Positions 12,694 through 61,353 of a stretch of 64,000 nt of DNA are shown piece by piece; the first letter of the stretch is position 1; every line of letters begins with the position of its first letter. The DNA is taken from sequence record MH051335.1; one strand, written 5' to 3'. This stretch comes from Escherichia phage vB_EcoM-Ro157lw. A model generated the notes under the pieces. That model worked only from the letters and a program-made list of their open reading frames with translations. It made no database searches and had not been told where the DNA came from. The position numbers were made by a program, and so were the translations under genes.

Positions 12694-12694
12694 G

Positions 12695-13276
12695 GTGTAT
12701 ATGACAGATGTCGACCTGATTGACATGCTGGCAACGCGAATTGAAGAAGGTCTGGCGGCGTATAGTCGTGCAGACCTTTCTGCTGTTCCGGTCCAGAAAA
12801 AGTATCAACCGACTCAACAGGGTATTCCGACTGGTGACCAAATTTGGTTTAACCTTTTATTCTCAGTTCCGTTTGGATGGTCCATGAGGAAAAGTGAATT
12901 TGTCAATGATGAGTCTCAATTTGTAAACGGAAAATTCAAAGATATTGAAGATCAAATATACGCTACACGTTTTCAAATCAGCGGCTTATTTCCAGAAGTT
13001 CCTGGCAATCCAGAAAAGCCTACTGCTAATGACGTATTGACTTATTTGGCAAGATTCATAACTCATAAAGCGAATTTGAGGGATTGGTTCAAAAAGCATC
13101 AGGCATCAGTATATCGAATCGACATGAATAATAATGAAAAGTTTTATGATGACATGTCGCAATTTGAATCATTCCCTTCTTTTGATTTGGTAATACTTCA
13201 CAGAAACGCAATTTCAATTGATACTCCTGCTGTTGCAAGAGCTGTTAATAATGATTTGGGTGATATTCCGGTGTAA
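12695..13276 (+). CDS. hypothetical virion protein (193 aa)
   Basis: Gene order only. Confidence 0.4.
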   Translation: MYMTDVDLIDMLATRIEEGLAAYSRADLSAVPVQKKYQPTQQGIPTGDQIWFNLLFSVPFGWSMRKSEFVNDESQFVNGKFKDIEDQIYATRFQISGLFPEVPGNPEKPTANDVLTYLARFITHKANLRDWFKKHQASVYRIDMNNNEKFYDDMSQFESFPSFDLVILHRNAISIDTPAVARAVNNDLGDIPV

Positions 13277-13277
13277 T

Positions 13278-13763
13278 ATGACAAAATCAAAAATGATAGA
13301 AAAACAGATTAAGGCGCTTCAGTCTATGAAGGGTCTTACTGTTGAGGCAGGATGGTTTGATTCTACCAGATACCCTTCAGAAACTGGTGGAGAAGGAATA
13401 CTGGTGTCAGAAGTCGCGCGGCTTAACGAGTTTGGTCACATAGCCGTTTTGAACTTTGGACAAGGCCCAGTCAGGGTAGAAGTGCCACCCAGACCATTCA
13501 TGAGATATGCCTATGAATTATTCGTTAGTGAGCGCAGTGAAATAGAGAATAAAATTGCTAAAAAGATTTTTTCCGGTAAAATAGACGCTAGACAGGCATT
13601 GGGTCAAATTGGGCTTGCGATGGAAGCAAAGATTGTCGAATCAATTAAAAACGGACCGTGGCAACCAAATGCCAGATATACTGTACGTGTGAAGGGATTC
13701 GACAAGCCTTTGATTCACACTAGCCTCATGTGGCAATCTGTCAGCAGCCAAGTCATTAAATAA
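13278..13763 (+). CDS. tail completion / virion morphogenesis protein candidate (161 aa)
   Basis: Gene order just before the sheath; ATG 13278 follows the upstream stop at 13276. Confidence 0.4.
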   Translation: MTKSKMIEKQIKALQSMKGLTVEAGWFDSTRYPSETGGEGILVSEVARLNEFGHIAVLNFGQGPVRVEVPPRPFMRYAYELFVSERSEIENKIAKKIFSGKIDARQALGQIGLAMEAKIVESIKNGPWQPNARYTVRVKGFDKPLIHTSLMWQSVSSQVIK

Positions 13764-34545: not shown

Positions 34546-36069
34546 TTAATTCATCTTTTTGCCGTCGAGGATGTGATCAGCAAGCATTGACTTCATACTG
34601 AGTGAACGCTGAATTTCTTCGTCGATGGTATCAACACCAATAAAATCAACATACAACACGCTTGATTTGGTGCCGATGCGGTGATTTCGGTCTTCGGATT
34701 GCTTGCGCAACTCGTTATCGTAGTTGCAAGAATAATAAATTGCCAAGTCGGCGGCGGTAAGCGTGATGCCGATGCCTGCCGCTGCAGCGTGGCAAACCAA
34801 GACTTGCGTTCCGCCGTTCTCGACTGTATTCTTCTGGAAGTCATCAATTAAGAACTCTCGCTGCTCTTTGGACGTTTCACCATTGTATACACCAGTGACC
34901 ACGCCTTCAGACTCAAGCCAGTCCTTAATCTGGTTCATCTCTTCCTTAAAGATGGCCCAAACGATGAATTTGCGCTCTGGGTCGTCTTCCAGCACACCTT
35001 CCACATAATCCTTAAAGGCCGTGAATCGTGGGTTGTCTTCCATGTAGACCATCTCATCATACACCTTAACAAAGCCGGATGTAACCTGCTTCATCTTAGT
35101 GCGAGACGCGATCATCTCAAACTTGACGTTTTCTTCTTCGCCCTTGTATTCCATCAAATAGTTGTACTCATTCTTGAGTTCATCGTAAACATCACGTTGT
35201 TTAGGCGACAACTCGAAGTCGATAAACTTGTACACCTTCTCTGGAAGGTCCGGCAAGTATTCCGCTTTTGTCGCACGAAAATAGTGCGGTTCCATCAGCC
35301 GGATAAGCTTGTCAAGGTTTTTGTACATCGGTCGACCAAACTGGTCTTTGCGCGGCACTTGCGGAATCCCATAACCATTGCCGCCGATTTTCTTGAGGAT
35401 GGCTTGCATCTCTGGGTCGTGCGCTTCAAGTAGCACTGTAAATTCAGAGTTAAAGGCACGGAATGATTTGGTGCCGAGCAATCCTGCTTCAAGGAAGTGG
35501 TATTGCATGTAAATATCCGCAGGCGAGCGCGGCAACGGCGTGCCAGAAAGGATTCGACGGGCCTTTGCCAGCCGTCCCAATTCCACAACCTTGATGGAGC
35601 GTTTGGCTGTGTTATTCTTGATGCGCGTTGATTCGTCGATGATCATCAGGCAGCGGTACTTCTTCAAGACCGACTCGATGTGTTGATAACCGACTGGTGT
35701 GTTGACAGTATCGATGTTGAATGAGAAGATGCGCGCAGGCACTTCGCCTTCGGGGTAGTGATCAGCAAACATCTTCTCCCAAAGCGCCTTGCCCTTTTTA
35801 GTTTTCATCTTATCGTTGCCGCACCAGTAGTGCCCAATCCACTTGATGGAAAGGTGCTCTGGCGCTTCACGACGAATCCAGTTTGAGTGGACCCCGTTTG
35901 GAGCGATGACGACCATGGCGTCGAAAGCGCCAGCGGTGAAGTGCTTTTCAAACTCTGCCAAAGCGGTCCAAGTTTTACCAAGACCCTGTTCCATGAAATA
36001 GGCAAAGTATTTTCTGCGGCCTGCTTTATCAAGCGCCAGAAGCTGGTGGCGCATCCCTTGTGTTTTCAT
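34546..36069 (-). CDS. SNF2-family (SF2) DNA helicase / translocase
   Basis: Motif I GLGKT, motif II DESTRIKN, C-terminal helicase domain; followed by VRR-NUC gene as commonly seen in phages. Confidence 0.75.
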   Translation of the reverse strand: MKTQGMRHQLLALDKAGRRKYFAYFMEQGLGKTWTALAEFEKHFTAGAFDAMVVIAPNGVHSNWIRREAPEHLSIKWIGHYWCGNDKMKTKKGKALWEKMFADHYPEGEVPARIFSFNIDTVNTPVGYQHIESVLKKYRCLMIIDESTRIKNNTAKRSIKVVELGRLAKARRILSGTPLPRSPADIYMQYHFLEAGLLGTKSFRAFNSEFTVLLEAHDPEMQAILKKIGGNGYGIPQVPRKDQFGRPMYKNLDKLIRLMEPHYFRATKAEYLPDLPEKVYKFIDFELSPKQRDVYDELKNEYNYLMEYKGEEENVKFEMIASRTKMKQVTSGFVKVYDEMVYMEDNPRFTAFKDYVEGVLEDDPERKFIVWAIFKEEMNQIKDWLESEGVVTGVYNGETSKEQREFLIDDFQKNTVENGGTQVLVCHAAAAGIGITLTAADLAIYYSCNYDNELRKQSEDRNHRIGTKSSVLYVDFIGVDTIDEEIQRSLSMKSMLADHILDGKKMN

Positions 36070-36488
36070 GACAATTCCTCTAAATACTTGATGATGTGAT
36101 GGATGGACCCGCTCGCGGCGACCATATCCAAAATCTCACCCTTAGTATATTCTTTTAATCGCAATGAAGGGTGAACTAAATAATAAGCCTTTTCAGAATC
36201 TACCTTCAGCAGCACAAATGACGAGAACTTCCAATCATTCCAAGAAGTCAAAAAGCTTTGTTGGCCTTTCTCAAATGCACTTTTAAAAGGAAGAGTGGTG
36301 GCCCTTGCAGGCCACGATTCAAAAAACTTCATTTCAAGCCAAAAGCCGCGCCCTTTCCGGTTGGTGCCGATTACATCCGGCACACCATCACCCGTCATGG
36401 ATTCGATTCTTTGAAGCTTCAGTACTGATTCTGAATGCTTCTTCAAAGGAACGAAAATGTATTTTTGTTCACGGTTATTTGTTGCCAT
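36066..36488 (-). CDS. VRR-NUC domain nuclease (PD-(D/E)xK fold)
   Basis: GVPDVIG...GFWLEMK matches the D...E-x-K catalytic pattern; adjacent to SNF2 helicase. Confidence 0.55.
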   Translation of the reverse strand: MATNNREQKYIFVPLKKHSESVLKLQRIESMTGDGVPDVIGTNRKGRGFWLEMKFFESWPARATTLPFKSAFEKGQQSFLTSWNDWKFSSFVLLKVDSEKAYYLVHPSLRLKEYTKGEILDMVAASGSIHHIIKYLEELS

Positions 36489-37131
36489 CTGGATACACCT
36501 GTTTGATCACGTCGACTATAAACATGTCAATGCCTTCAAGCTTTCGACCTTTCATCAGGAAGAATGCACCGTTCCCGACGTTCTCTGCAATGTATTTCCC
36601 GTATTTCTGGAACTTCTCTGGACGAATCCTGAAGCGCATTGGCGAGTCGGTCGAGTCGTCCTTGCACATAAGGTCGATGAACTGAGTTTCAAGCTTGTTT
36701 CCATACTGATCAAACTCTGCGTAGCGGCCATCGGCCTGAAGACCCTTTTTAAGCTTGCCGTGCTTTGTATAAATGCCGCGCTCAAGACGTTTACGGATGC
36801 GTGTTGCTTCGTTCTCGTCAGCCAGCACTTTCTTGGTCAACTTGCCGATTACTATTGCACGCTCGTCATCGCCGACTTCCTTCATCTGACGTATTGAAGC
36901 ACCGGAAGTAACGCCAATCAGATAGGGGTCATTATACGCCCAGCCAAACTTGGTGTGCATCTCTGTAAGGTCGCCGTATTTGACTTCAGCATTGGCCAAT
37001 GCATCCTTTTGTTTTTGCGTTAAGGTTCCGGCTTCACGTGCTTCGATGTACTTCATCGCTTTCACCATTCCGTACCCTTTAGCGTTCATGATGCCGCCAA
37101 TTAGCTTTCCGTTAGCGATTGGCCAATGCAT
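36475..37131 (-). CDS. dnaE: DNA polymerase III alpha-like protein, C-terminal fragment (separated from the N-terminal ORF by a frameshifting 127-bp duplication)
   Basis: First 45 residues duplicate the last 45 residues of the upstream ORF 37112-39499; removing one copy of the duplication fuses both ORFs in frame. Confidence 0.6.
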   Translation of the reverse strand: MHWPIANGKLIGGIMNAKGYGMVKAMKYIEAREAGTLTQKQKDALANAEVKYGDLTEMHTKFGWAYNDPYLIGVTSGASIRQMKEVGDDERAIVIGKLTKKVLADENEATRIRKRLERGIYTKHGKLKKGLQADGRYAEFDQYGNKLETQFIDLMCKDDSTDSPMRFRIRPEKFQKYGKYIAENVGNGAFFLMKGRKLEGIDMFIVDVIKQVYPDGNK

Positions 37132-37246
37132 CCTTTTGTTTTTGCGTTAAGGTTCCGGCTTCACGTGCTTCGATGTACTTCATCGCTTTCACCATTCCGT
37201 ACCCTTTAGCGTTCATGATGCCGCCAATTAGCTTTCCGTTAGCGAT
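36991..37246. repeat. perfect tandem duplication, unit 127 bp (two copies, 36991-37117 and 37118-37244, identity extends 2 nt further)
   Basis: seq[i] equals seq[i+127] across the whole span, read directly; lies inside the polymerase coding region. Confidence 0.9.
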
Positions 37247-39499
37247 GGTCCAGTTCATTGAAGAGTGATCAGGGTCGATTGGCACATAATCCACGCCTTC
37301 CTTTGCAAGTTCACGTAATATCGCAATCGTCTGGTCTTCGTCCTTGGCAGCGCGTAAGCAAGCAGCGGCAAATTCCAACGGATAGTGTCGTTTAAGCCAC
37401 AAGGTCCAGTAGGTCACGACCGCGTATGATACGGAGTGTGACTTGTTAAATCCCCATGACCCGAACGTCGCCATTGCTTGCCAAAGCTTTCTTGCATCAG
37501 CTTCCGGTACGCCGTTATTTATTGCGCCTGCAACGAAGTCTTCGCCAAGCTTGTTAAAGTATTCCTCACCCTTACGGCCTGACATCGCCTTACGTACAGC
37601 GGATGTCTTCGCCCAGTCAAATGAACCAATCTCTTTAACCACGGCCATGATTTGCTCTTGGTAAAGAAACACGCCGTAAGTCTCTTTTAAGTACGGCTCA
37701 AGCTGCGGCACGTCGTACTCAATCGGCGCACGTCCTGCCGCGCGTTCGATGTATTTCTGGGCCATACCGGATGACAACGGGCCAGGTCGGCCAAGTGCTG
37801 TCAGGTTATCGATTTTGTTAAAGTTATCAACGTGCACAAAGTTGGTTACTGAGCGTACAGCGTCGCCTTCGAACTGGAAGATTCCTGACATCTTATTTTC
37901 GTTAAGGATGTCAAGGACGCTTTGATCATTGAGCTTGATTCCGTACAGTGTTTCAGCATCTATCACGCCAGTATCAGAAATGATGCCGAGGGTACGAAGG
38001 CCCAATGCATCAAGCTTCAAAAGGTTAAGGTATTCGCTGTCAGGCTTATCAATTTGTGCAATCCCTTCCGCCGTTACCGTACAGTAATCAGAGATTGGAT
38101 CATTACACACGATGATTCCCGCTGCGTGAACGCCAGTGTGGGAAGGGTGAATTTCAAGGTCACCCATGCATCGCGCGGCATCAGGATATTTAGCCACAAA
38201 CTCTTGGCCCGTGGTCGTTGTTGCAAAGGTGTCCTCCAGGCCGTGGCCATAACGGGCGTCACCGGATGAGTATTCAAGCAATGCGTTTTTAATGTTGGCC
38301 GTTTCGTGATATCCAATGTTGAATTTCTTACCAACCTGAGCCATTACTGAGTTGGCCTTAAGCGTGTTGATGTTGCCAAGCTTTGCAACGTTCATTTCGC
38401 CGTATTTTTCTTTAAGGTAATCAAACACCATATAGCGTTTGGTATCCTCAAAGTCAATATCAATATCAGGAAGGTCTGCGCGGCTTACGTCAATGAATCG
38501 GGCAAACAGTAGCTTATACGGGATTGGGTCAACTTCCGTGATGCCGAGGCAATAACAAACCAGTGAACCAGCCGATGAGCCGCGAGCGGGTCCGACGAGC
38601 ATTTTTGTTTTTGCGAATCGTACAAGGTCCGCTACCACCAGAAAGTATGAGTCGAAATCTTTCAGCTGAATCTGGTGAATCTCTTCGTTGAATCGGTCCT
38701 CATATTCCTGAGTCCATTCTTTGATGTGGCCTGCCTTAAGGCGGTACTCCATCCCCTCACGAGCAAGCTTTACCATGTCACCAGCAAGGTGGATAATCGG
38801 TGCCTTGCGCAGCTTCAGGTCAAGTCCCACGATTCCGTTTGCAATGTCAACTGCATTGGCCGTTGCTTGATTCAACTCATCTTCGGTCAATATTCCTTTA
38901 AGCTGTTTGCGCAAGTCTTCCGCGTCAACGATACAGTGCGGCTTGACCGTGTCGCGCACTTCCCAAGCATAAGCAAAGTCAACGTGCTCAGGTGAAGGCA
39001 TGTGGTTGTATCCGGTTAAAACCAGCGGCCTTCCGTTGCTGCGGTGAGCCAATACCTGGCGCTTGGCCAAAAGGAACGATGATGGGTTGACGTCTATATA
39101 ATCGTAGTCCTCTGGCCGCAGCAACTCCACGGCCCCGCCACAGAATTTAACGACGCCATCGAGCGCCCCGAACTCTGCACGGGTCAGTCCGCCGCGCTGT
39201 GTTGCAAGCGTGGTCGCGTTGTAAAAGGATTTCAGGTCAAGCGCCAATATCCAAGCCTTCGGTTTGAATCCCTTTTTCGGGTCCGCATCAGGGTCGATGA
39301 TTGGAATTTCCATGCCGAACATAGGCTTAATATCATTTTTCTGGCACTCCTTTTCCCATCGAACGTGACCCCATGTATTGTTATCAACTAATGCCGCGAC
39401 TTCGCAGCCCAACTCTTTGAGCCGTGCTATAATTTCAGGATGCCGTCCATATACTTCTTTGAACGTGTAACCGCTGCGAACTCTCAATTGTGGAAACAT
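37112..39499 (-). CDS. dnaE: DNA polymerase III alpha-like replicative polymerase (PHP plus polymerase core), N-terminal 795 aa
   Basis: N-terminal PHP-like domain and large polymerase core; TAATG overlap with the upstream exonuclease gene. Confidence 0.75.
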   Translation of the reverse strand: MFPQLRVRSGYTFKEVYGRHPEIIARLKELGCEVAALVDNNTWGHVRWEKECQKNDIKPMFGMEIPIIDPDADPKKGFKPKAWILALDLKSFYNATTLATQRGGLTRAEFGALDGVVKFCGGAVELLRPEDYDYIDVNPSSFLLAKRQVLAHRSNGRPLVLTGYNHMPSPEHVDFAYAWEVRDTVKPHCIVDAEDLRKQLKGILTEDELNQATANAVDIANGIVGLDLKLRKAPIIHLAGDMVKLAREGMEYRLKAGHIKEWTQEYEDRFNEEIHQIQLKDFDSYFLVVADLVRFAKTKMLVGPARGSSAGSLVCYCLGITEVDPIPYKLLFARFIDVSRADLPDIDIDFEDTKRYMVFDYLKEKYGEMNVAKLGNINTLKANSVMAQVGKKFNIGYHETANIKNALLEYSSGDARYGHGLEDTFATTTTGQEFVAKYPDAARCMGDLEIHPSHTGVHAAGIIVCNDPISDYCTVTAEGIAQIDKPDSEYLNLLKLDALGLRTLGIISDTGVIDAETLYGIKLNDQSVLDILNENKMSGIFQFEGDAVRSVTNFVHVDNFNKIDNLTALGRPGPLSSGMAQKYIERAAGRAPIEYDVPQLEPYLKETYGVFLYQEQIMAVVKEIGSFDWAKTSAVRKAMSGRKGEEYFNKLGEDFVAGAINNGVPEADARKLWQAMATFGSWGFNKSHSVSYAVVTYWTLWLKRHYPLEFAAACLRAAKDEDQTIAILRELAKEGVDYVPIDPDHSSMNWTIANGKLIGGIMNAKGYGMVKAMKYIEAREAGTLTQKQKDALANR

Positions 39500-42462: not shown

Positions 42463-43289
42463 CCTTTTGATACTCCATCTTTAGCAACTGGATTGTTGGT
42501 GATTGGCATCGCACTCCAAAACTGGATGCGCAACTCTTCTTGCTGTGCCGTGGTATCCATCCAATCACGATACCAAGGGCAATGGGCTTTGCCATGACGA
42601 GGAAACGCGCATTTACCCATACCGATGCATTGCGGCTGTAATAATGGATTTGCCCACGGGTGCACCTTGAGGACTTCCGCAACCATTGCGCGGAATACTT
42701 CTTGATACTCGCCTTGAGTGCGCGTGCACAAGCGGTTTGACGCCATCTGCTGCAGCGTGCGCAAGTTGAACTTTGCCATGATATGCGTTTGCATATTAGA
42801 AGGCAACACGGCACGTGCATCTTGAATCTCTGCGCCAGCCGCGCGAAGCTCTTGATACAAAGCATCGATAGTCGCCATCGCATCATCCCACTTCTCTGCT
42901 AAGTATTGCTTTTGAAGTAAAGATTGGTGCTCTTCATCAGTCCCAAACGCTTCACATTGATCAATCAACTCTGGATTTTGGTGTGAGAATGCCTTCGGAC
43001 GAATCGCATCAAATGCAGACGACTCCTGAGCGCGGCTGGTACGTTCTTGATATGCGCCTGTGCGTGTGCGCACCATCTGATGGGTCATGTTCTTTGAAAC
43101 ATCGGTGATGTCAAAGATATAGTCCACAAAGTCAAAAGGCGACTTGATTGTATCAAGCATGTAGCGCCAGTGCTCTTGCTTCTCTGATTCCGTCATCTCA
43201 GAGACAGGCTTGCCAGTCATGCGCGTGTTCTTTGTTTCCAGCAAAAGGTCAAGTGCATCTTGGGTGTATCGAATTAATTTAACTTTCAT
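42459..43289 (-). CDS. thyX: flavin-dependent thymidylate synthase ThyX-like, with Cys-rich C-terminal extension
   Basis: RTRTGAYQERTSR aligns with ThyX motif RHRxxxYxQxSxR; VLPSNMQTH...PW matches the conserved ThyX C-terminal block; extra CIGMGKCAFPRHGKAHCPW tail. Confidence 0.65.
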   Translation of the reverse strand: MKVKLIRYTQDALDLLLETKNTRMTGKPVSEMTESEKQEHWRYMLDTIKSPFDFVDYIFDITDVSKNMTHQMVRTRTGAYQERTSRAQESSAFDAIRPKAFSHQNPELIDQCEAFGTDEEHQSLLQKQYLAEKWDDAMATIDALYQELRAAGAEIQDARAVLPSNMQTHIMAKFNLRTLQQMASNRLCTRTQGEYQEVFRAMVAEVLKVHPWANPLLQPQCIGMGKCAFPRHGKAHCPWYRDWMDTTAQQEELRIQFWSAMPITNNPVAKDGVSKG

Positions 43290-44942: not shown

Positions 44943-45782
44943 TTATTCCGCTTGATCACCGTCTTCGGCATCTTCGTTGGATTCAACATCGACAAACTCG
45001 ATGTGGCCCATCTCTTCCAGCTTGCTCAGGTAGGAGCGAACGGAAGCGCCAAACAGTTGATCTTTAACTTTTTCGCCCAGCTCATCGATAGACTGCGCCA
45101 CGCCAACTTCGCCTTCTTTGATCGCCGCCAGAACGCGTCCACGGGTGGAATGCTCTTGCGGCTGGCTCAGGCCATTGCCAGTGTAGATGAAGTGGGTTGC
45201 TTTTGCGCGACGCTGACCGTTTGCCTTTTTAGCAGCCTTACGTTCTGCGATGGCTTTGCGACGTTCTTCAGCTTCTTTCTTACGCTGTTCTTTCTGCTTT
45301 TCTGCAGCTTCTTTAGCCGCAATCTTAGCAGCTTCACGCTCTGCCTTGCGTTTCGCTTTAGCTTCTTCTTTGGCCTTCTCTTTTTCGGCCTTCGCTGCAG
45401 CACGGGCTTGATCACGCTCTGCTTTCTTAGCAGCAGCTTGTTCAGCTTTCAGGCGCTTGGCTTCTTCTTTGGCCTTTGCCTTTTCGATTTCTTTTGCTGC
45501 TTTAGCGGCTTCACGCTCTGCTTTCTTAGCAGCTGCTTTTTCTGCACGCTCTTTGGCTTTCTTCGCTGCTTCTTCAGCACGTTTCTGTGCTTTCTCATCA
45601 GCGGCCTGCTTGCGTTTCAGTGCAGCTTCTTCACGCTTGGCTTGTTTTTCCTGCTCACGCTTCTGGCGTTTTTCTTCGGCTTCTTTCTTTTTAGCCAGGC
45701 GTTTTTCTTCAGCCACGCGACGACGTTCTGCTGCAGCTGCTTGTTTTTCTTCTTTAGATAATACTTTGATTGCTTCGGCCAT
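44943..45782 (-). CDS. Lys/Ala/Glu-rich low-complexity protein with small globular C-terminal domain
   Basis: About 200 residues of KxAExxAK-type repeats, then about 80 non-repetitive C-terminal residues. Confidence 0.5.
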   Translation of the reverse strand: MAEAIKVLSKEEKQAAAAERRRVAEEKRLAKKKEAEEKRQKREQEKQAKREEAALKRKQAADEKAQKRAEEAAKKAKERAEKAAAKKAEREAAKAAKEIEKAKAKEEAKRLKAEQAAAKKAERDQARAAAKAEKEKAKEEAKAKRKAEREAAKIAAKEAAEKQKEQRKKEAEERRKAIAERKAAKKANGQRRAKATHFIYTGNGLSQPQEHSTRGRVLAAIKEGEVGVAQSIDELGEKVKDQLFGASVRSYLSKLEEMGHIEFVDVESNEDAEDGDQAE

Positions 45783-53265: not shown

Positions 53266-53525
53266 ACAGCAAATTCGGAATCAAAGATAAATGCCAATTA
53301 CTTTTTGAAATGAGAGTTGCTGAGAAAGAGCGTTTAGATTTTGAAGCAGAATTGAGAGAAGAGGAAGAGATGAATAAATTTCAGTTCAACGATAAAAAGA
53401 TCAGTAAAGCAGACGCAATCAAGCAGCTTCGCCGCGTACTTGAAGCCAGCGGCCATACGAAAGAGCGTGCACGCGTCCTGGCCAAAGAACATTATAAACG
53501 TTTTGTGTCACAAATCAGAGGTTAA
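53262..53525 (+). CDS. hypothetical protein (87 aa)
   Basis: Overlapping stop/start. Confidence 0.4.
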   Translation: MNSKFGIKDKCQLLFEMRVAEKERLDFEAELREEEEMNKFQFNDKKISKADAIKQLRRVLEASGHTKERARVLAKEHYKRFVSQIRG

Positions 53526-53527
53526 TT

Positions 53528-54019
53528 ATGATCATCCATCGCCCTTTAATGTTAAACAGAGAAGAGTGTGAAGAAATTTTACACGCATTGAGACGTGCAG
53601 AGGCAGATGTCAACATTCGTGTAAAGGTAAGAAACTTTATCATGAATGAGTTTAAAAGTGATGATGTTGGCTATGCCATCGATGAATTACTGAAGCGAAA
53701 CGTCAAGGGTGCAACAAGACCTATTCACCATCAATCACGTTGCGTAAGAGTTCCTATTCAAACTTATGTTGATAAAAAGCCGCGCCTTAAGCCAATTGAC
53801 ATATTTGACATCAAGAACGGCGACTCAATCATAAGCAAGGACGCGGAAGAGGGCGCAATTCCTATTAATGGCCGGGTGATTTACGTGTCGCACGATGCTG
53901 ACCAGACTTTAATTCAATGGGTAAGGTTTGATAAAACTGCCGGCGGCAAGTATCGCTACTATGGCGATGAGCGATTCACCACTAAATTCTATAAGGTACT
54001 CGATCATGGCTCATGTTAA
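53528..54019 (+). CDS. hypothetical protein (163 aa)
   Basis: ORF in early operon. Confidence 0.45.
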   Translation: MIIHRPLMLNREECEEILHALRRAEADVNIRVKVRNFIMNEFKSDDVGYAIDELLKRNVKGATRPIHHQSRCVRVPIQTYVDKKPRLKPIDIFDIKNGDSIISKDAEEGAIPINGRVIYVSHDADQTLIQWVRFDKTAGGKYRYYGDERFTTKFYKVLDHGSC

Positions 54020-54353
54020 AGATGAAACGCTGTATGGCGCAGAGATTAAGAAGCGCGTGCGTGAGATGGCTGAAGGCGGTACGTTGATACCGTCGCGAGT
54101 CCGTTGCGACCACGTGATTGGCGTATCCGGTACGAAGGAGATGGGTGTGTTGGTAAAAGACATTCGCGTTGGGGATGTCATGGTCATCGACCGACAAGCG
54201 CGAGTCGTTATCCAGGTGCAACCGAACGATGATGAAGGATGTGTCCTATTGAAGCTGAAGAAGCTTTCATCCAGCCCAGCAAAAGCCGTCATCAAGAAGG
54301 TCTGGCCCGAAGGATTACGCAAACTCATTCGTCGACCCGTGGAAAATGTATAA
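54006..54353 (+). CDS. hypothetical protein (115 aa)
   Basis: ATG 54006 in frame of ORF 53928-54353. Confidence 0.4.
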   Translation: MAHVKDETLYGAEIKKRVREMAEGGTLIPSRVRCDHVIGVSGTKEMGVLVKDIRVGDVMVIDRQARVVIQVQPNDDEGCVLLKLKKLSSSPAKAVIKKVWPEGLRKLIRRPVENV

Positions 54354-54589
54354 TGGAAGATTATATCAATGCGATGTACATGGCATTCTATGTCGTGCAG
54401 CTTCCCAATGGCGCGGTATTTTATGGCGAGTACACCTTTGACGTTCAATATGACGTCTCAGAGCGTACAGTGTTAACAAGGGAGTTGATTGCGGACCTTA
54501 AGGACGACATCAAGCGCGTCGCGCGGCAGCAGTTCAATTTGGATGACACCGTAATTGTTCGCATCACCGGAATAACAGAGGTGCAGTGA
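54353..54589 (+). CDS. hypothetical protein (78 aa)
   Basis: TAATG stop/start overlap. Confidence 0.4.
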   Translation: MEDYINAMYMAFYVVQLPNGAVFYGEYTFDVQYDVSERTVLTRELIADLKDDIKRVARQQFNLDDTVIVRITGITEVQ

Positions 54590-54918
54590 TGACCCGTGAT
54601 CAGATACTCGCCGCGCATGAGCGTGAAAAGGTTAAAGATATTTGTAAAAGGCACAGATTATTTGCTGACTCTTACGTCTTCTTAAAGTCCTGCATCAAGC
54701 AAAACGCAAGGATGGATAACACCGTATTGACATTCAACCTTTTGTCTAACGGAGCAAAGCTTGATGCGATATGCGGATGCAGAATTGCCAGCAATAACTT
54801 CGCCCAAAGAGAGAGGAAAGATGCATTCATCTACCGATTCTCTTACCGGATTGGAGACACAAAGATAACAAGGACAAGGCACGAGATAGAGATTGACCTA
54901 CTCCACTATGTAAAATGA
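54586..54918 (+). CDS. hypothetical protein (110 aa)
   Basis: Overlapping start. Confidence 0.4.
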   Translation: MMTRDQILAAHEREKVKDICKRHRLFADSYVFLKSCIKQNARMDNTVLTFNLLSNGAKLDAICGCRIASNNFAQRERKDAFIYRFSYRIGDTKITRTRHEIEIDLLHYVK

Positions 54919-54921
54919 ATA

Positions 54922-54951
54922 TCAAAAAGGTGAGCTAAATGCTTGCCTTTT
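54922..54951 (+). repeat. 30-bp element TCAAAAAGGTGAGCTAAATGCTTGCCTTTT, copy 1
   Basis: Identical 30-mer recurs at 56462-56491; contains AAGGTGA plus ATG. Confidence 0.7.
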
Positions 54952-55003
54952 CTTTTATCAATACTTATACTCTTTTCATCAAGACTGACAAGCGAGGTGA
55001 ATT

Positions 55004-55321
55004 ATGATTTACTTAGGCATCGACAAGGAACAAGACGAGCGGTTAGGAAGCGTGTTAAACTTAGACTTGAACACAGCTGTACACACCAAGCCTTGGCCAG
55101 AGGCGCACCCCGACGTAGTTGTACCCGTTGCACCTTGGGCGCGTTACGTTGCCATTGACGATAACGGCCTTGTCCATTGTTATTCAGAAAGGCCAACGTA
55201 TTTCGAGCTTCACCGCGAATGGCTGATGACTGGATGGGCAAAGGTGCGCTGCTGCGGCGAAGTCGGTCTGGAAGGATGGGGATTCAAGGCTAGTGAATCG
55301 TGTGTCGAGGTGCAATTATGA
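55004..55321 (+). CDS. hypothetical protein (105 aa)
   Basis: RBS GAGGTG. Confidence 0.4.
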   Translation: MIYLGIDKEQDERLGSVLNLDLNTAVHTKPWPEAHPDVVVPVAPWARYVAIDDNGLVHCYSERPTYFELHREWLMTGWAKVRCCGEVGLEGWGFKASESCVEVQL

Positions 55322-55536
55322 ATGCCGCGCTGGGTAAGTTGTCTTTTAACAAGCGCAATGAGTTGCGCATGGTGTCTCGTTTTCAGTTTTTATTAAATGC
55401 TATGTCAAGCGTTGCCATAACAATGCTTCGCGCCGATTGCCCTGCTGAAAAGCGTGAGACTTTATTTGAACGTCATAAACAATTACAAAAGGCTGCGTTT
55501 AAGCTGCAGCAATACGCTATGGAGTATGCAAAATGA
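55318..55536 (+). CDS. hypothetical protein (72 aa)
   Basis: Overlapping stop/start. Confidence 0.4.
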   Translation: MNAALGKLSFNKRNELRMVSRFQFLLNAMSSVAITMLRADCPAEKRETLFERHKQLQKAAFKLQQYAMEYAK

Positions 55537-55817
55537 AGGTGCAACGCTGCCCACATTGCTTGTTAACTATGCGACTTCCTGTTGAAGAATATTTACATCA
55601 CGTTAATGTTTGTGAAGCTAATCCTGAAAATTCGACGCGTTACTATTATCACTATCACGCAGAAGCGGAAGATGGATCAGGCGCAACAGGAATCGTTACC
55701 ACGAAAGAAATGGTTATCACCAAAAAGGCGTATGAAAGCCTGCTGGATACAATAAAGGAAGTATCTGGAAAAGAAATAATCTGCATCAAATCTTTGTCTT
55801 TCTTACACGAGGTGTAA
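55533..55817 (+). CDS. small zinc-finger-like protein (CPHC...H...C)
   Basis: N-terminus MKVQRCPHCLLTMRLPVEEYLHHVNVCEANPEN; paralog of the next gene. Confidence 0.45.
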   Translation: MKVQRCPHCLLTMRLPVEEYLHHVNVCEANPENSTRYYYHYHAEAEDGSGATGIVTTKEMVITKKAYESLLDTIKEVSGKEIICIKSLSFLHEV

Positions 55818-55818
55818 A

Positions 55819-56202
55819 ATGAGAATGAAACGTTGTCCGTATTGCCACGATGTGATGCATCTTCCGCATGAAGAGTTCGTGCAGCACATGGCTAATTGCG
55901 ATAAGAATCCTAATAGCGAGAGTCAGCTTGAAGAAAGAATGTTCTTGGTGTCATTCAAGTATTCAGCTTACGATACACAGCCTGCTTATGGTGCACAAAG
56001 TGCTGCTTACAGACCGATGACATTGAGAAGTGACATTGACTCGATGCAGCTTGCGGCCTGGATTAACGTTAAGGAAGGCATCACATGGCACTTTATCGCG
56101 CGCATCCAATCCCAGATTCTACAAATCAAGCGCGAATACAACCGTGACATCACTGAAGTGAAGGTGCTTTCCATTACGCCGATGAATAAGGAGTTGCCGT
56201 GA
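55819..56202 (+). CDS. small zinc-finger-like protein (CPYC...H...C), tandem paralog
   Basis: N-terminus MRMKRCPYCHDVMHLPHEEFVQHMANCDKNPNS aligns residue-by-residue with the previous ORF. Confidence 0.45.
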   Translation: MRMKRCPYCHDVMHLPHEEFVQHMANCDKNPNSESQLEERMFLVSFKYSAYDTQPAYGAQSAAYRPMTLRSDIDSMQLAAWINVKEGITWHFIARIQSQILQIKREYNRDITEVKVLSITPMNKELP

Positions 56203-56513
56203 ACAAGGGTCCGATGACTAAGCTGGCCGTTGCCGCGCGGAAGCTTCGACAAGCCGTTAATGGGTCGCGGCCCGTGGTGTTAACACTCGACGATGCAAAG
56301 GCACTGGTAGAGCTACTCGACGAGCACAACCGACGCAAGAATCTGGAGAACACATTACGCTGGCGCGTCACCCCCAGCAGGGCGGGAGAGCGAGAAGAAA
56401 GCTTACTTGCGACGCAAACTAAGGTCGGTCGGCCTCCACGAAGAGGCGAAGAAGATTTGATTCAAAAAGGTGAGCTAAATGCTTGCCTTTTTATTTGCCT
56501 GTATTATACTTAG
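56199..56513 (+). CDS. hypothetical protein (104 aa); 3' end runs through the 30-bp repeat
   Basis: ORF in six-frame track; true stop uncertain. Confidence 0.3.
   Translation: MNKGPMTKLAVAARKLRQAVNGSRPVVLTLDDAKALVELLDEHNRRKNLENTLRWRVTPSRAGEREESLLATQTKVGRPPRRGEEDLIQKGELNACLFICLYYT
56462..56491 (+). repeat. 30-bp element TCAAAAAGGTGAGCTAAATGCTTGCCTTTT, copy 2
   Basis: Identical to 54922-54951. Confidence 0.7.
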
Positions 56514-56538
56514 TTCATCAAGCAAAGGAGATTTGATT

Positions 56539-56844
56539 ATGAGTACCGAAGCAATGAAGAAAAAGGTTTTGAACGCTTTGCAAGAAGCCGTGAATTGTGG
56601 TGCTATTAAAGCCTTCAAGGAGACTCAAGAAGGCGGTGAGCCAGTATTCTTCTTCAAGAATAAAAAGGACGGCGTTGCAGCAATCATGCTGTTAAAGAAT
56701 AGTGCTGACACATTTATCCTTTGCGTCGGAGGGTATGACCTTATCGTTAATGATGTATTTATCAATTGTGCCGACGGCCTTGACCCTATGTTGACATTTG
56801 AGCGTCGCGCCATCCGTGTTGCGACATTTGGAGGGAAGTTATGA
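56539..56844 (+). CDS. hypothetical protein (101 aa)
   Basis: Strong RBS AAAGGAG before ATG 56539; N-terminal region related to N-terminus of 57301-57804. Confidence 0.4.
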   Translation: MSTEAMKKKVLNALQEAVNCGAIKAFKETQEGGEPVFFFKNKKDGVAAIMLLKNSADTFILCVGGYDLIVNDVFINCADGLDPMLTFERRAIRVATFGGKL

Positions 56845-57134
56845 GACTAAGCCTAGCGCAAATTCAAACATTGTACCGAATGGAAGACGGCACGCCATAC
56901 ATGCTGCGCGGCGACCGCAAGAAGGCTTATGAAAAGCGGCCATCACTGTTCCACGACATCAATGCGCCATCAATCCCTGTCTTATTCCGGTTGGGCCTTG
57001 TTGATTGGGCGGTGCCAGGAGAGAAAGACCCGACGCGCTATTCATCCGTGGTGATGACAAAAGCAGGTCGCGCGGCATTAAAAGAAATTAAAGAGAATAT
57101 GACTGGAGGTAAATATTATGACATCCAACCTTAA
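56841..57134 (+). CDS. hypothetical protein (97 aa)
   Basis: Overlapping stop/start. Confidence 0.4.
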   Translation: MRLSLAQIQTLYRMEDGTPYMLRGDRKKAYEKRPSLFHDINAPSIPVLFRLGLVDWAVPGEKDPTRYSSVVMTKAGRAALKEIKENMTGGKYYDIQP

Positions 57135-57282
57135 AGCCCGTTTATTATTCACCAAGCCGCATGTGCCGTATAAGATTAGCAAGCGCACCTGGCTTAACAT
57201 TTACAACCGCAGCGGCGACCGTTGTTTGTACAAGGCAAAGCGGCGCAAGAAGGTATATTCTTACACGACATCCATCAAATAA
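57118..57282 (+). CDS. small basic protein (54 aa)
   Basis: RBS GGAGG before ATG 57118; Lys/Arg-rich. Confidence 0.3.
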   Translation: MTSNLKARLLFTKPHVPYKISKRTWLNIYNRSGDRCLYKAKRRKKVYSYTTSIK

Positions 57283-57300
57283 GACTAGGAGAAGACAACA

Positions 57301-57804
57301 ATGAAAATCGAACAACTCGAAGCAGTATTGGAAATGGCCGTAAAGGCAGGCGCAATCAAAAGCTATCGCCGCGAGAAGTCTGAGGGTGTTGCGCACTTTT
57401 GTCGCAACTTCTATATCGTCGGCAACCTTAACGACCACTACACCATCGAGTGGTATATCAATATCATGACACTTAAGTCGCGCACCATGGAGCTTTGGTG
57501 CGATGACATCTGCTTATCTAAAACCAATCCATCCTACGACGTTGCATTGGCATTCTATTACGGAAGCCGTCAGCCTGTCGCCCACATAGGCGAGAAGCAT
57601 GAGCATCTTAAGGCACGACCAGAGGAATCAATGGAAGGCTGGATTGAATGGGCTGGAGGAAAGAATCCGGTGCCTGGTAAGAAGGTCATGCTGATGTGGA
57701 GGAATGAAGCAAAGTCGTCGTATTCGTCCAATTCAGAGGGATGGCTATGGCAGCACAACGGAAGCGTTTATGACATCATTGCATATCGCGTCGTGGAGGA
57801 ATAA
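57301..57804 (+). CDS. hypothetical protein (167 aa) sharing C-terminal domain with 59007-59432
   Basis: C-terminus ...W..WAGGKNP..G..V...DIIAYRVVEE aligns with ...WFGGDNPAAGEMV...DIIAYRVVKEG. Confidence 0.45.
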   Translation: MKIEQLEAVLEMAVKAGAIKSYRREKSEGVAHFCRNFYIVGNLNDHYTIEWYINIMTLKSRTMELWCDDICLSKTNPSYDVALAFYYGSRQPVAHIGEKHEHLKARPEESMEGWIEWAGGKNPVPGKKVMLMWRNEAKSSYSSNSEGWLWQHNGSVYDIIAYRVVEE

Positions 57805-58145
57805 TGGAAGAGCAAGAAGGCCGTGAGCTAACTTTCGACGAGCAAATGAAAGAGCTTCAGCGCACATCGCCGCTGCGCGGTAAGGTTATTGACATCGAGG
57901 CGAGCGACTCCAATCTCACCCAGTGGCGTCTCAAATGCATCAGCACAAGCAAGGATATGTTAAGCTTCAAAGTCGGTCAGACTTATTTGCTTTATGAGGC
58001 AAAAGGACTTATTATTGATGGAAGGCAAATTGTCTTCACGGTCGTCAACGGGATGCGTTGGTTCGTGAAGCGTGATGTCGAGGGTCGTGACATGTTTGTC
58101 GCAGGCTTTCCAGAAGCAAGATTCCAATTGGAGAAGGTTAAATGA
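57804..58145 (+). CDS. hypothetical protein (113 aa)
   Basis: Overlapping start. Confidence 0.4.
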   Translation: MEEQEGRELTFDEQMKELQRTSPLRGKVIDIEASDSNLTQWRLKCISTSKDMLSFKVGQTYLLYEAKGLIIDGRQIVFTVVNGMRWFVKRDVEGRDMFVAGFPEARFQLEKVK

Positions 58146-58460
58146 AAACTCTTCACTTGCATGCGCAATCGCTTGCATCTAAGTTTGGATTCATGGACGG
58201 TGACATCGTGTCACTTTTCTGTGAAGAAATAATATTGAATCAGAATTAAAAGATAAGGACTCGCACGACGTTTTAATCAAATTAGTAAGGAAGCACCTTT
58301 TGCCTTTGGTGAGTCATGTTAAGGTATTTGAAATATTAACGATGCACAACCCGATACGCTGTGAAGATGACTTCATTGATGAGATGCGTCACAGCGATGT
58401 TCAAGTTGAAGTGGGCCTTGAAGAAGTGTTACAGTGCATTAAAGAAACGGAGAAATTCGA

Positions 58461-58793
58461 ATGAAATTGAAATGGTACGTGGACCCTGAGCCAACAGGCC
58501 AATACAGGTCATTCCAACGTCGCGGCTGGCCGACTTGTTACAGCGGCAATCCCGATAAAGAAGATTGCGAGCTTCTCGCGCAAATCGTAAGCCTCGACCA
58601 TCACGGCTATGAAGGCCACTACGCGAGAGCAACCAACCTTCGGCTCAAGGTGCGCATCCATTTCAAGGTCGCAGGCGAGGACCGCACCGGACTCTCCAAG
58701 GAAGAGTTCAGCAGCATCGCCGAAGCAAAGGCATGGCTCAAGGCATTCTATAAGAACAACCCTAAATTCTATCCAACTAAGGATGCATCATGA
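58461..58793 (+). CDS. hypothetical protein (110 aa)
   Basis: ORF in early operon. Confidence 0.4.
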   Translation: MKLKWYVDPEPTGQYRSFQRRGWPTCYSGNPDKEDCELLAQIVSLDHHGYEGHYARATNLRLKVRIHFKVAGEDRTGLSKEEFSSIAEAKAWLKAFYKNNPKFYPTKDAS

Positions 58794-59023
58794 CCGATAA
58801 ACAATACGCAGTCGGGCAGCGTGACATCGAGCAACTCGACGAGGGCGGCTATTATACGCGCCACATCTTTGCCATGACGCATGAAGGACTTTACAGCAAG
58901 TCGGACATCGCCGCTGAACTGGCCCACCGTGACTTGCAAATTGACATGTTGCGTATCGCTCTTGAAAAGCAAACGCAAATCGCTATTGAAATTTTGGAGA
59001 AGTTAAATGATACAACGTTATGA
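58790..59023 (+). CDS. hypothetical protein (77 aa)
   Basis: Overlapping start. Confidence 0.4.
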   Translation: MTDKQYAVGQRDIEQLDEGGYYTRHIFAMTHEGLYSKSDIAAELAHRDLQIDMLRIALEKQTQIAIEILEKLNDTTL

Positions 59024-59432
59024 CCTGACATACGATGTGGCGACAGAAGATTTCGACATCACTCCTGTTCCAGAAAGTCACGAAGGACGTTTTGTTGCAT
59101 ATGAGGACTATGCCGCGCTGGAAGCGAAATGCAGTGAAGCGCAACGCGAGTTGGTTGCATTACGCTCACAGGTCCGTGATGCGTCGGCGCTCGTTAAGCA
59201 GTTGCATGACGTTGTTGCTACTATAGGCGTGGATGTTGATGCGCCGAAGGAGGAAGCGTGGACCGTGTGGTTTGGTGGCGATAATCCGGCGGCTGGGGAA
59301 ATGGTTGAATACAAGCTGCGCAATGGAGGAGATAAAGTGCTGTCAAGAATCTCCGACCATCTTCACTGGGGTCATATAGGCGCGTTAAAGGGCAGCGACA
59401 TCATTGCTTATCGGGTCGTTAAGGAGGGGTGA
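59007..59432 (+). CDS. hypothetical protein (141 aa), C-terminal domain paralogous to 57301-57804
   Basis: Shared C-terminal block ending DIIAYRVV. Confidence 0.45.
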   Translation: MIQRYDLTYDVATEDFDITPVPESHEGRFVAYEDYAALEAKCSEAQRELVALRSQVRDASALVKQLHDVVATIGVDVDAPKEEAWTVWFGGDNPAAGEMVEYKLRNGGDKVLSRISDHLHWGHIGALKGSDIIAYRVVKEG

Positions 59433-59968
59433 TGGGTGGCTTTTGGCGTAAATCAAAATACTCTAAAGAGTTGCATTACTTTCTTAAGGGTGAAGGCATA
59501 AGCATTTGCGGAAGATATAAAATGGATGGCAATTCAAATTTGCAAAGTGACAAGAAGACTCACTGGCTGCTCAAGGAAGAGTGCCATGTTTGCCGCGAAA
59601 GGCTAGACAAGAAAACGAAAATGGTCGACTACATAAAGGAGCTTCAAAGCAGGTGCAAAAGTCCGCAGGAGTTCGCCATTGCTCTTTGGGATGATCACCC
59701 TGAATTAAGAAAGGAATGGTTAAAGACTGACGCAATCAACTCTATATTTAAAATGAAATACAGGACCACTGCAAGATATAAAATGGATAGCAAAATAATT
59801 CAGAAGGTATTTTCTTATTGGAGGGATACAGTTGATATCGTGAAAATAAAGAAATACCAAAAGGAAGTGCTGCTGGAATTGGAAAGGATTGGCTATAAAG
59901 TCACCAATAAAATGATAGAGGGAGAGATAAAAAGACGGGCTGACAAAGGATTTATGCCTAAATTATAG
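59429..59968 (+). CDS. hypothetical protein (179 aa) with Cys/His pairs near the N-terminus
   Basis: CGRYK...CHVCRERL; Lys-rich. Confidence 0.4.
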   Translation: MMGGFWRKSKYSKELHYFLKGEGISICGRYKMDGNSNLQSDKKTHWLLKEECHVCRERLDKKTKMVDYIKELQSRCKSPQEFAIALWDDHPELRKEWLKTDAINSIFKMKYRTTARYKMDSKIIQKVFSYWRDTVDIVKIKKYQKEVLLELERIGYKVTNKMIEGEIKRRADKGFMPKL

Positions 59969-60240
59969 TGGATAAAAGAACAATTGTTTACGTGTTTTGA
60001 ATAATGGGATGTGTACAATGGGTCGCTTTACGCGGCCTTTTGTTGTTTTGGTCGTGTTTCTTGATGGAATAATTATGAGGCGATGTTTTATTTATTAATT
60101 GTGCGGAAATATTTAGAAATATATATAAACAGGATTGTTAATATTTTAATAGCGTATGACTATTGGTCCGTGGTGTTTGTTAGGAATTATCTATGGATTG
60201 AAATTTTAGTGTCGTGAAACGTGGTGTTTGAACACATTTG

Positions 60241-60600
60241 ATACGCGTAAAATACGGCTAAAAATTAAGCGTATCATGGCTGCAGGCCGCGCCGTTCCTG
60301 GATTCATCCTTTCCAAATTGGTACACCCTTACGTCATGATACGTCATGGTTTTTTATCCGTATCAGTGTACAGCCCTTGCCGCGCCTGGCTTGTACATTA
60401 ATCTTACGGATGATACGGATAAAACTGGGCATCGTTATATATATAATTTGAAAAATTAATTAACTCCATTTTGAATTAATTTAAATTAATTTTTTCTACA
60501 TCCTCATACTTATGTTAATTTATATATTTAACGTATTATCCGTAAGATATAAGTAAAAACAAAGACTTGCGGCAATACGGATGATACGTCATGATACGCT
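60241..60600. repeat. second iteron-like region: ATCCGTATCA-family repeats flanking an AT-rich core
   Basis: TTATCCGTATCAG, CTTACGGATGATACGGATAAAA, TTATCCGTAAG, ATACGGATGATACGTCATGATACG read directly; AT-rich core 60431-60520. Confidence 0.7.
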
Positions 60601-60826
60601 TCAACCAGCCAGCAGCGGCTAAGTCATTGATTTGCATAACACGCGGCGAAAGGGATGGATTTCTTTTATACGTATCAAACAGTACACCAAGCACCACGGT
60701 CCGCTATTCATTAAGCATTGTGATTTATGTACGTTTACAGCCAATTTGAACATCAATCTGCACTTGAATATAATGTTCAATCATTGTATAATTCACACTA
60801 TTAATTTGCACTATGGGATTTGCACT

Positions 60827-61300
60827 ATGAGTCAAGATTATGTAGCAATGCCTGAAGACTTTGAAGACCCGCGATTTGCAGAGCATAATCAGGCATTATT
60901 CGATGAGTTCATTGACCTTGTTATTCAGGGCCATGACATGCGCGCAGCTTTTGCACTAGTATTTGGCATGGAGGTTGCGACCGATAACTACACTGGCCAG
61001 CGAATCCTCTGCACGCAACGCAATCCGTACTACAAGATGCGCTACAAAAAGCGTATGGAAGAGATGCCATTGAAGGAATTGTGGAGCGTAAAGAGTTCCA
61101 TCCACAATTTAGTGAAGCTTGTGCGTGATCCAGAAGTCGCGGCATCAGCCAAGCTTAATGCCATTCGTGAACTGAATATCATCTACGGCATTACGATGAT
61201 TGATGAAAACGGCAATAGTAAAATGGGCCGTTCCATGGATGATTTCTACAAGGATTTTGGAGAGGCGGCCAAAGAGGGTGAGCAATTCTCCCGCCACTAG
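60827..61300 (+). CDS. hypothetical protein (157 aa); start codon lies inside an ATTTGCACTATG motif
   Basis: ATG 60827 in frame of ORF 60632-61300; no conventional RBS spacing. Confidence 0.4.
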   Translation: MSQDYVAMPEDFEDPRFAEHNQALFDEFIDLVIQGHDMRAAFALVFGMEVATDNYTGQRILCTQRNPYYKMRYKKRMEEMPLKELWSVKSSIHNLVKLVRDPEVAASAKLNAIRELNIIYGITMIDENGNSKMGRSMDDFYKDFGEAAKEGEQFSRH

Positions 61301-61319
61301 CCAATTTGCACTATAAAAC

Positions 61320-61353
61320 GGCCCTAGAACACATTTTCTCCACTTCTAGGGCC
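61320..61353 (+). other. stem-loop GGCCCTAGA...TCTAGGGCC (9-bp stem, 16-nt loop)
   Basis: Perfect inverted repeat directly after the stop at 61300; no U-tract. Confidence 0.3.

What the first reader, a model, noticed from the sequence alone, without database searches (positions are those of the whole stretch)
36991..37246. Exact 127-bp tandem duplication splits the DnaE-like polymerase gene into two overlapping ORFs
The sequence is identical to itself at an offset of exactly 127 bp over 36991-37246. Because 127 is not a multiple of 3, the second copy shifts frame, ending ORF 37112-39499 and creating a restart at 37131; the last 45 residues of the upstream ORF are the first 45 of the downstream ORF. 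Removing one copy gives a single in-frame polymerase of about 965 aa. 127 is the maximum default k-mer of SPAdes, whose circular contigs carry a k-length overlap at their ends, so the most economical explanation is an untrimmed circularisation overlap left in a re-originated genome. If real, the phage has a split or inactivated replicative polymerase, which would be remarkable.
Basis: partly seen in the sequence, partly recalled or inferred. Interest (0 to 1): 0.85.

Follow-up and report, generated by a model that had tools for sequence, protein, structure and literature searches.

The report
Untrimmed assembler overlap splits polymerase gene
A perfect 127-base tandem duplication breaks the DNA polymerase gene of this E. 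coli phage genome, and it is almost certainly leftover assembly overlap rather than biology, so the record needs fixing.

Summary
Window 36991..37246 is a 100% identical tandem repeat of period 127, and it is the only long repeat in the window. It splits a minus-strand DnaE-type polymerase gene into ORFs of 795 aa and 218 aa. Deleting one copy restores a 965-aa ORF, the length of the intact gene in the relatives checked.

The window is a Wifcevirus, an E. coli myophage of the WFH/ECML-117 group. All 28 full-length GenBank relatives and two metagenomic relatives carry one copy. Both window copies share five private synonymous SNPs. The repaired gene is under very strong purifying selection (dN/dS 0.00-0.013). 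No other gene in the window is clearly frame-broken.

The window ends on the same base as the right end of phage WFH's 3.7-kb terminal repeat. The source record was therefore re-opened by hand after assembly.

127 is the largest k-mer SPAdes allows. [quoted passage not shown]

Best explanation (about 0.9): an untrimmed contig-end overlap was carried into the interior when the contig was re-opened. A genuine duplication giving a two-piece polymerase is not excluded without reads (about 0.04). Biological interest is low; the value is as a database error flag.

The parts
36991..37117 (.). Copy 1 of the exact 127-bp tandem duplication. The register is ambiguous by 2 nt.
   Evidence: 100% identical to 37118..37244. 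Relatives have no counterpart for one of the two copies.
37118..37246 (.). Copy 2 of the duplication (37118..37244) plus the 2-nt extension of self-identity (37245..37246).
   Evidence: Both copies carry the same 5 private SNPs relative to WFH.
37112..39499 (-). Upstream fragment of the DnaE-type polymerase gene: 795 aa, ending 'N R stop' two codons after the copy junction.
   Evidence: ORF. Pfam PHP, DNA_pol3_alpha (E 2e-63) and DNA_pol3_finger (E 1e-37); aligns to Pol III alpha structures of T. aquaticus and E. coli.
36475..37131 (-). Downstream fragment of the same gene: 218 aa. Its ATG lies in the tail of the upstream copy and reads MHWP across the junction. Residues 5-47 repeat the upstream tail, and the rest is the normal C-terminal 172 residues.
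   Evidence: No Pfam hit on its own. Its counterpart is residues 746-966 of the WFH reading frame.
36475..39499 (-). The whole polymerase locus. With one 127-bp copy removed it is a single 2898-bp gene encoding 965 aa.
   Evidence: in-silico repair; 2898-bp intact genes in AV128 and WFH; dN/dS 0.00-0.013.
60468..64000 (.). Counterpart of the WFH direct terminal repeat. The window's last base equals the last base of the WFH record. This is evidence that the source record was re-opened after assembly.
   Evidence: window 60468..64000 maps to WFH 1..3701 and 67583..71283. WFH DTR is exactly 3701 bp and the last 80 nt of window and WFH are identical. WFH described as 71,283 bp including a ~3.7-kb terminal repeat.

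Best explanation
The duplication is a finishing artefact, not a feature of the phage.

The likely sequence of events is as follows. The genome is a Wifcevirus of about 68 kb unique sequence plus a terminal repeat of about 3.5 kb. It was assembled from short reads with SPAdes at its maximum k-mer size of 127. The terminal repeat collapses in such an assembly, so the genome comes out as one 'circular' contig. That contig's arbitrary break point happened to fall inside the polymerase gene, and its last 127 bases repeat its first 127 bases. The contig was then cut and re-opened to give the WFH-type linear layout ending at the terminal repeat. The old ends were joined without trimming the overlap, which placed two identical 127-bp copies side by side at 36991..37244.

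Because 127 mod 3 = 1, the join shifts the frame. It turns one 965-aa DnaE-type polymerase gene into an apparent 795-aa ORF plus a 218-aa ORF.

Shown: the exact duplication, its period, the repair to 965 aa, single copies in all relatives, and the WFH-type end of the window. Inferred: the assembler and the order of the editing steps.
For: 1. The repeat is exact, tandem and of period 127. 127 is the largest k SPAdes allows (established knowledge). 127-bp overlaps at SPAdes contig ends are described as assembly artefacts to be removed in phage workflows (PMC5923482). One published E. coli phage genome was finished by removing exactly these 127 bp and then re-opening the contig to match a reference (PMC8104045).

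2. The window ends on exactly the base that ends the WFH record and its 3701-bp terminal repeat. By chance this has odds of about 1 in 68,000. The record was therefore re-arranged after assembly, which is the step that moves a contig-end overlap into the interior.

3. All 28 relatives with full coverage in GenBank span 127 bp less than the query, or differ for an unrelated reason in the case of AV128. WFH, a second WFH assembly and AV128 align with a clean 127-bp gap. Two metagenomic relatives, L004 and L005, are single copy. The junction sequence is absent from IMG/VR.

4. Removing one copy restores a 965-aa ORF equal in length to the relatives' genes.

5. The gene is under very strong purifying selection along its whole length. 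This includes the part downstream of the break, with 0 nonsynonymous against 34 synonymous differences to AV128 in codons 794-965. All 5 private changes in the duplicated unit are synonymous.

6. The window is otherwise clean. Only three small indels separate it from EC150 over 37 kb, none frame-breaking, and no other gene is clearly split.
Against: No reads, assembly metadata or source record could be obtained. The source is absent from the phage, plasmid and E. coli collections and from the IMG/VR and metagenome scans, and its exact proteins are not on record. The assembler and the editing history are therefore inferred.

The first ~8 kb of the presumed record lie outside the window, so the left terminal repeat copy was not seen.

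A very recent genuine duplication would also give two identical copies sharing the private SNPs. The 2-nt identity at the repeat edge is compatible with microhomology-mediated slippage as well as with chance.
Confidence: 0.9

Rival explanations
1. The same class of artefact arose by a different route. Either two SPAdes contigs that overlap by k=127 in the assembly graph were pasted end to end. Or the 64-kb window itself was cut across the start/end of a 'circular' record whose ends still carry the 127-bp overlap.
For: An exact 127-bp overlap is also the signature of neighbouring contigs in a k=127 de Bruijn graph (established knowledge). The duplication sits in the interior of the window.
Against: A wrap-around window would make the coincidence of the window's end with the WFH terminal-repeat end pure chance, at about 1 in 68,000. 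A two-contig assembly normally breaks at repeats, and the polymerase gene contains no other repeat. A break at an arbitrary point fits a single circular contig better.
Confidence: 0.05
2. The duplication is genuine and very recent, for example from replication slippage or illegitimate recombination at 2-nt microhomology in the sequenced phage stock. The polymerase is then made as two polypeptides: residues 1-795, and a 218-aa C-terminal piece with a duplicated helix-hairpin-helix segment. The second piece would be expressed by re-initiation at the ATG that overlaps the upstream stop by 20 nt. Alternatively the sequenced genome is a defective variant.
For: The downstream ORF is intact and begins with an ATG created near the junction. 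The two ORFs overlap by 20 nt, which could allow translational coupling. All catalytic domains (PHP, palm, fingers) lie in the upstream piece. Two nucleotides of identity flank the unit.
Against: The length equals the SPAdes maximum k exactly, which has a prior of well under 1% for a biological duplication of arbitrary length (inference). There is zero divergence between the copies. No relative has the duplication. The gene is among the most constrained possible, dN/dS about 0.01 or less, and is the phage's replicative polymerase. The only Shine-Dalgarno-like element (AAGGA) abuts the ATG with no spacer. The record shows signs of manual re-opening.
Confidence: 0.04

Closest known systems
SPAdes k-mer (127-bp) contig-end overlap artefact in phage genome assemblies
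   Same: Exact identity, a length of exactly 127 bp, absence from independent genomes, and a record that was re-opened after assembly. [quoted passage not shown] Removed before re-opening in the U136B genome (PMC8104045).
   Different: Here the overlap is not at the ends of the sequence. It sits as a tandem repeat in the interior because it was apparently not trimmed before the genome was re-opened. The assembler used for this record is not known to me.
DnaE-type (C-family, Pol III alpha) replicative polymerase of Wifcevirus phages, e.g. vB_EcoM_WFH gp060 (YP_009823508.1, 965 aa)
   Same: After removal of one repeat copy the window encodes a 965-aa protein. It has only 1 nonsynonymous difference from WFH gp060 over 965 codons. 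It has the same PHP, Pol III alpha NTPase and finger domains, and the same neighbours: an epsilon-like exonuclease gene upstream and helicase-region genes downstream.
   Different: As written in the window the gene is interrupted by the +127-nt frameshift.
Genuinely split polymerase genes (e.g. the intein-split dnaE of cyanobacteria) and programmed frameshifting (e.g. dnaX)
   Same: Only the superficial picture of a polymerase gene in two ORFs.
   Different: No intein or other inserted sequence is present. The only difference from intact relatives is a second copy of 127 nt of the gene itself. The split is not conserved in any relative. These comparisons rest on my own knowledge of those systems, and a slippery site was not searched for.

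Membership tests
Assembler k-mer end-overlap artefact (SPAdes, k=127) | The two copies are 100% identical. | tested here: met
   100% matches, 0 indels over 127 nt (129 nt of self-identity).
Assembler k-mer end-overlap artefact (SPAdes, k=127) | Repeat length equals the assembler's final k-mer size (127, the SPAdes maximum). | tested here: met
   Period 127. 127-bp SPAdes overlaps are documented.
Assembler k-mer end-overlap artefact (SPAdes, k=127) | The sequence was rotated or re-opened after assembly, so that former contig ends are adjacent in the interior. | tested here: met
   The window's last base equals the last base of the WFH record and of its 3701-bp terminal repeat. This is indirect: the editing history itself was not seen.
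Assembler k-mer end-overlap artefact (SPAdes, k=127) | The extra copy is absent from independent assemblies of related genomes. | tested here: met
   28 GenBank relatives are single copy. Alignment shows a clean 127-bp gap. L004 and L005 are single copy. The junction is absent from IMG/VR.
Assembler k-mer end-overlap artefact (SPAdes, k=127) | No sequencing reads span the copy1-copy2 junction, and the record's stated assembler is SPAdes or a wrapper of it. | not testable with these tools
   The source record and reads were not found in any collection.
C-family replicative DNA polymerase (DnaE / Pol III alpha) | PHP domain, Pol III alpha palm/NTPase domain and finger domain, in that order. | tested here: met
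   PF02811, PF07733 (E 2e-63) and PF17657 (E 1e-37). E about 1e-84 to solved Pol III alpha chains of T. aquaticus and E. coli.
Genuine tandem duplication fixed in a phage lineage | Present in more than one independent genome, or showing divergence between the copies. | tested here: not met
   No relative carries it. The copies are identical.
Genuine tandem duplication fixed in a phage lineage | Microhomology at the duplication boundaries. | tested here: inconclusive
   There are 2 nt of extra identity, expected by chance in about 16% of cases.
Naturally split or recoded polymerase gene | The split or recoding site is conserved among relatives. | tested here: not met
   All relatives examined encode one uninterrupted gene of 965-967 aa.

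The most novel reading that the evidence does not exclude
The duplication is real. This Wifcevirus isolate would then replicate with a two-piece DnaE polymerase: a 795-aa catalytic piece, plus a 218-aa C-terminal piece carrying a duplicated helix-hairpin-helix segment and expressed by coupled re-initiation. That would show that a C-family replicase tolerates a break at the fingers/HhH boundary.
Probability: 0.04. Interest if true: 0.5.

Novelty: not a real feature. Interest (0 to 1): 0.08.

Why it matters
The biological significance is very small. The phage almost certainly has an ordinary intact 965-aa DnaE-type polymerase, like every other Wifcevirus.

It matters in practice for three reasons:
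- The deposited sequence is probably 127 bp too long.
- Its essential polymerase will be annotated as two ORFs or as a pseudogene.
- Such k-length interior tandem repeats can mislead comparative genomics, pangenome counts, and safety or quality assessments of therapeutic phages.

An exact interior tandem repeat whose period equals an assembler k value (55, 77, 99, 127, 141) is a cheap, general screen for this class of error.

If the duplication were real, it would be a natural experiment in splitting a C-family replicase.

Tried and rejected
**Finding the source record or an independent assembly of the same strain.** These all failed.
- The best phage-collection match was 98.4%.
- There was no match in plasmids or E. 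coli genomes.
- The junction 36-mer and a degenerate junction pattern were absent from IMG/VR.
- A 38-mer specific to this haplotype found only two relatives at 96% identity, both with one copy.
- Exact-protein look-ups for the 795-aa ORF, the 218-aa ORF and the neighbouring 507-aa helicase found nothing on record.

**AV128 as a second case.** Its match was 158 bp longer than the other relatives'. This was rejected: the excess is an extra 153-bp ORF between dnaE and the exonuclease gene, and its dnaE is an intact 2898 bp.

**A generally error-prone assembly with many frameshifts.** Rejected. The window agrees with EC150 almost without indels. The many 1-nt indels seen against WFH are on the WFH side.

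**Natural split, intein or programmed frameshift.** Rejected, because the only difference from intact relatives is a second copy of the gene's own 127 nt.

**Searches not run.** I did not run the genome-contig scan or the large protein-homology searches, because their outcome would not change the verdict.

Full report
**1. The observation**

Reading 36800..37500 and running Tandem Repeats Finder shows a single array at 36991..37246: period 127, 2.0 copies, 100% matches, no indels.

A direct check shows that the sequence equals itself at offset 127 for 129 consecutive positions, 36991..37119. This is a 127-nt unit duplicated in tandem plus 2 nt of extra identity at an edge. An extension of 2 nt or more is expected by chance about 16% of the time, so it says nothing either way.

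The only other exact repeat of 25 nt or more in the window is a 30-mer. No other long-period tandem repeat exists. The repeat is therefore real and far beyond chance.

**2. Effect on the gene**

On the minus strand the duplication lies inside a polymerase gene. The ORF list gives 37112..39499 (795 aa) and 36475..37131 (218 aa), overlapping by 20 nt.

- The upstream ORF reads through the first copy it meets, crosses the junction out of frame and stops after two codons (...DALAN-R-stop).
- The downstream ORF starts at an ATG in the tail of that copy, reads MHWP across the junction, and is then in the normal frame.
- The peptide shared by the two ORFs is 43 residues (upstream 752-794, downstream 5-47).
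- Deleting 127 nt restores one ORF of exactly 965 aa.

**3. What the gene and the genome are**

The 795-aa piece carries Pfam PHP, DNA_pol3_alpha (E 2e-63) and DNA_pol3_finger (E 1e-37). The 218-aa piece has no Pfam hit on its own.

The repaired protein matches solved Pol III alpha structures at E about 1e-84. The duplicated residues 749-793 align to T. aquaticus alpha residues about 879-914. From my knowledge of that structure, this is the helix-hairpin-helix segment after the fingers domain.

The window as a whole is a Wifcevirus, an E. coli myophage of the WFH / WFC / ECML-117 / FEC19 group. It is 92-98% identical to about 28 GenBank genomes.

**4. Comparison with relatives**

- All 28 relatives that cover the 3.2-kb query span 3074 bp (3071 for a query starting 3 nt in) against 3201 bp in the window. 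That is 127 bp less.
- The one exception, AV128, is longer because of an extra 153-bp ORF elsewhere. Its dnaE is an intact 2898 bp. WFH gp060 is also 2898 bp.
- A multiple alignment shows a clean 127-column gap in WFH, a second WFH assembly and AV128. Both window copies carry the same five differences from WFH.
- A 38-mer specific to the window's haplotype found one IMG/VR contig and one metagenome contig. Both are 96% relatives with a single copy.
- The junction itself, exact or degenerate, is absent from IMG/VR.

**5. Selection and overall quality**

I compared the repaired gene with AV128, WFH and EC150 using Nei-Gojobori counts.

| Region (codons) | Result |
|---|---|
| 1-748 | dN/dS 0.005-0.013 |
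| 749-793 (duplicated unit) | no nonsynonymous change; 4-10 synonymous |
| 794-965 | 0/34, 0/18 and 1/23 nonsynonymous/synonymous differences |

The part of the gene downstream of the break has therefore been under intense constraint in this lineage.

The rest of the window is clean. Against EC150 there are three small indels in 37 kb, none frame-breaking. A frame-by-frame comparison with WFH shows the polymerase as the only long gene clearly split in the window. The cluster of six 1-nt indels against WFH at WFH 20934-22055 is absent against EC150, so it probably lies in the WFH record.

**6. Evidence that the record was re-opened**

Aligning the window to the full WFH record shows that window 60468..64000 corresponds to WFH 1..3701 and to 67583..71283. 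This is WFH's exact 3701-bp direct terminal repeat.

The window's last base is the last base of that repeat and of the WFH record. The last 80 nt are identical. [quoted passage not shown]

A chance coincidence has odds of about 1 in 68,000. The source record was therefore laid out as a linear genome with WFH-type termini, and the window is probably its last 64 kb. Short-read assemblers collapse such terminal repeats and return a circular-looking contig with an arbitrary break, so this layout requires cutting and re-joining the contig by hand.

**7. The known artefact**

127 is the largest k-mer SPAdes permits, and its circular contigs repeat the last k bases at both ends (established knowledge). 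[quoted passage not shown] The phage U136B genome was finished by removing 'terminal repeats of 127 bp' and then re-opening the contig to match a reference (PMC8104045). Skipping the trimming step while doing the re-opening step produces exactly what is seen here.

**8. Verdict**

The most likely explanation (about 0.9) is an untrimmed 127-bp contig-end overlap carried into the interior on re-opening. The phage has a normal single 965-aa DnaE-type polymerase.

A variant of the same artefact takes about 0.05. This is either two contigs pasted together or a window wrapped across record ends. The wrap-around form is disfavoured by the terminal coincidence.

A genuine, very recent duplication yielding a two-piece polymerase takes about 0.04. 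In its favour are the intact downstream ORF and the 20-nt overlap. Against it are the exact match to the SPAdes maximum k, the lack of any relative with the duplication, the extreme constraint on the gene, and a Shine-Dalgarno-like AAGGA that abuts the ATG with no spacer.

The source record and its reads could not be found. The final proof, read mapping or PCR across 36900..37350, remains to be done.

**9. Novelty and interest**

This is not a real biological feature. Its value is as a database correction and as an example of a simple screen: interior exact tandem repeats whose period equals an assembler k.

Noticed in passing
window 60468..64000: This stretch corresponds to the 3701-bp direct terminal repeat of phage WFH. 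The window ends on exactly the last base of the WFH record. The window is therefore probably the last 64 kb of a record of about 72 kb laid out with terminal repeats at both ends.
   Followed up: yes
window 12579..13697 (WFH NC_048194.1 20934..22055): Six single-base indels separate the window from WFH here, whereas the window and EC150 agree without indels. WFH's annotation in this stretch is fragmented: gp030, gp031 and gp032 are short and gapped, against three contiguous genes in EC150. The WFH reference record probably carries frameshift errors in these head/neck genes.
   Followed up: partly
window 54922..54951 and 56462..56491: This exact 30-nt repeat, TCAAAAAGGTGAGCTAAATGCTTGCCTTTT, is the only other long exact repeat in the window. 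It contains a ribosome-binding site and the start (MLAF...) of two small hydrophobic ORFs in the early-gene region, which suggests paralogous small genes or a shared translation-initiation cassette.
   Followed up: partly
window 42902..42980: This short, highly divergent patch has a net +27 nt (in frame) relative to both WFH and EC150. It lies inside the gene annotated as ThyX-type thymidylate synthase in the relatives. It looks like a local replacement or mosaic segment.
   Followed up: no
window 36160..36166: A +1/-1 pair of indels lies 6 nt apart relative to both WFH and EC150, inside the 140-aa ORF (36066..36488, minus strand) just downstream of the polymerase gene. The result is a two-codon frame-shifted patch that restores frame.
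   Followed up: no
L001 (AV128, OR352958.1) 3474..3626: AV128 has an extra 153-bp annotated ORF between dnaE and the epsilon-like exonuclease gene. The window, WFH and the other relatives lack it.
   Followed up: no
window 53266..60400: The early-gene region is the most variable part of the genome relative to WFH. Alignment falls into blocks of 80-95% identity separated by unalignable gaps, which is typical mosaicism of small early genes.
   Followed up: no
window 63194..63250 and 45532..45595: There are two imperfect short tandem repeats. One is 30 bp x2 at 83% identity, inside the terminal-repeat region. The other is 33 bp x1.9 at 81% identity, inside a coding region.
   Followed up: no
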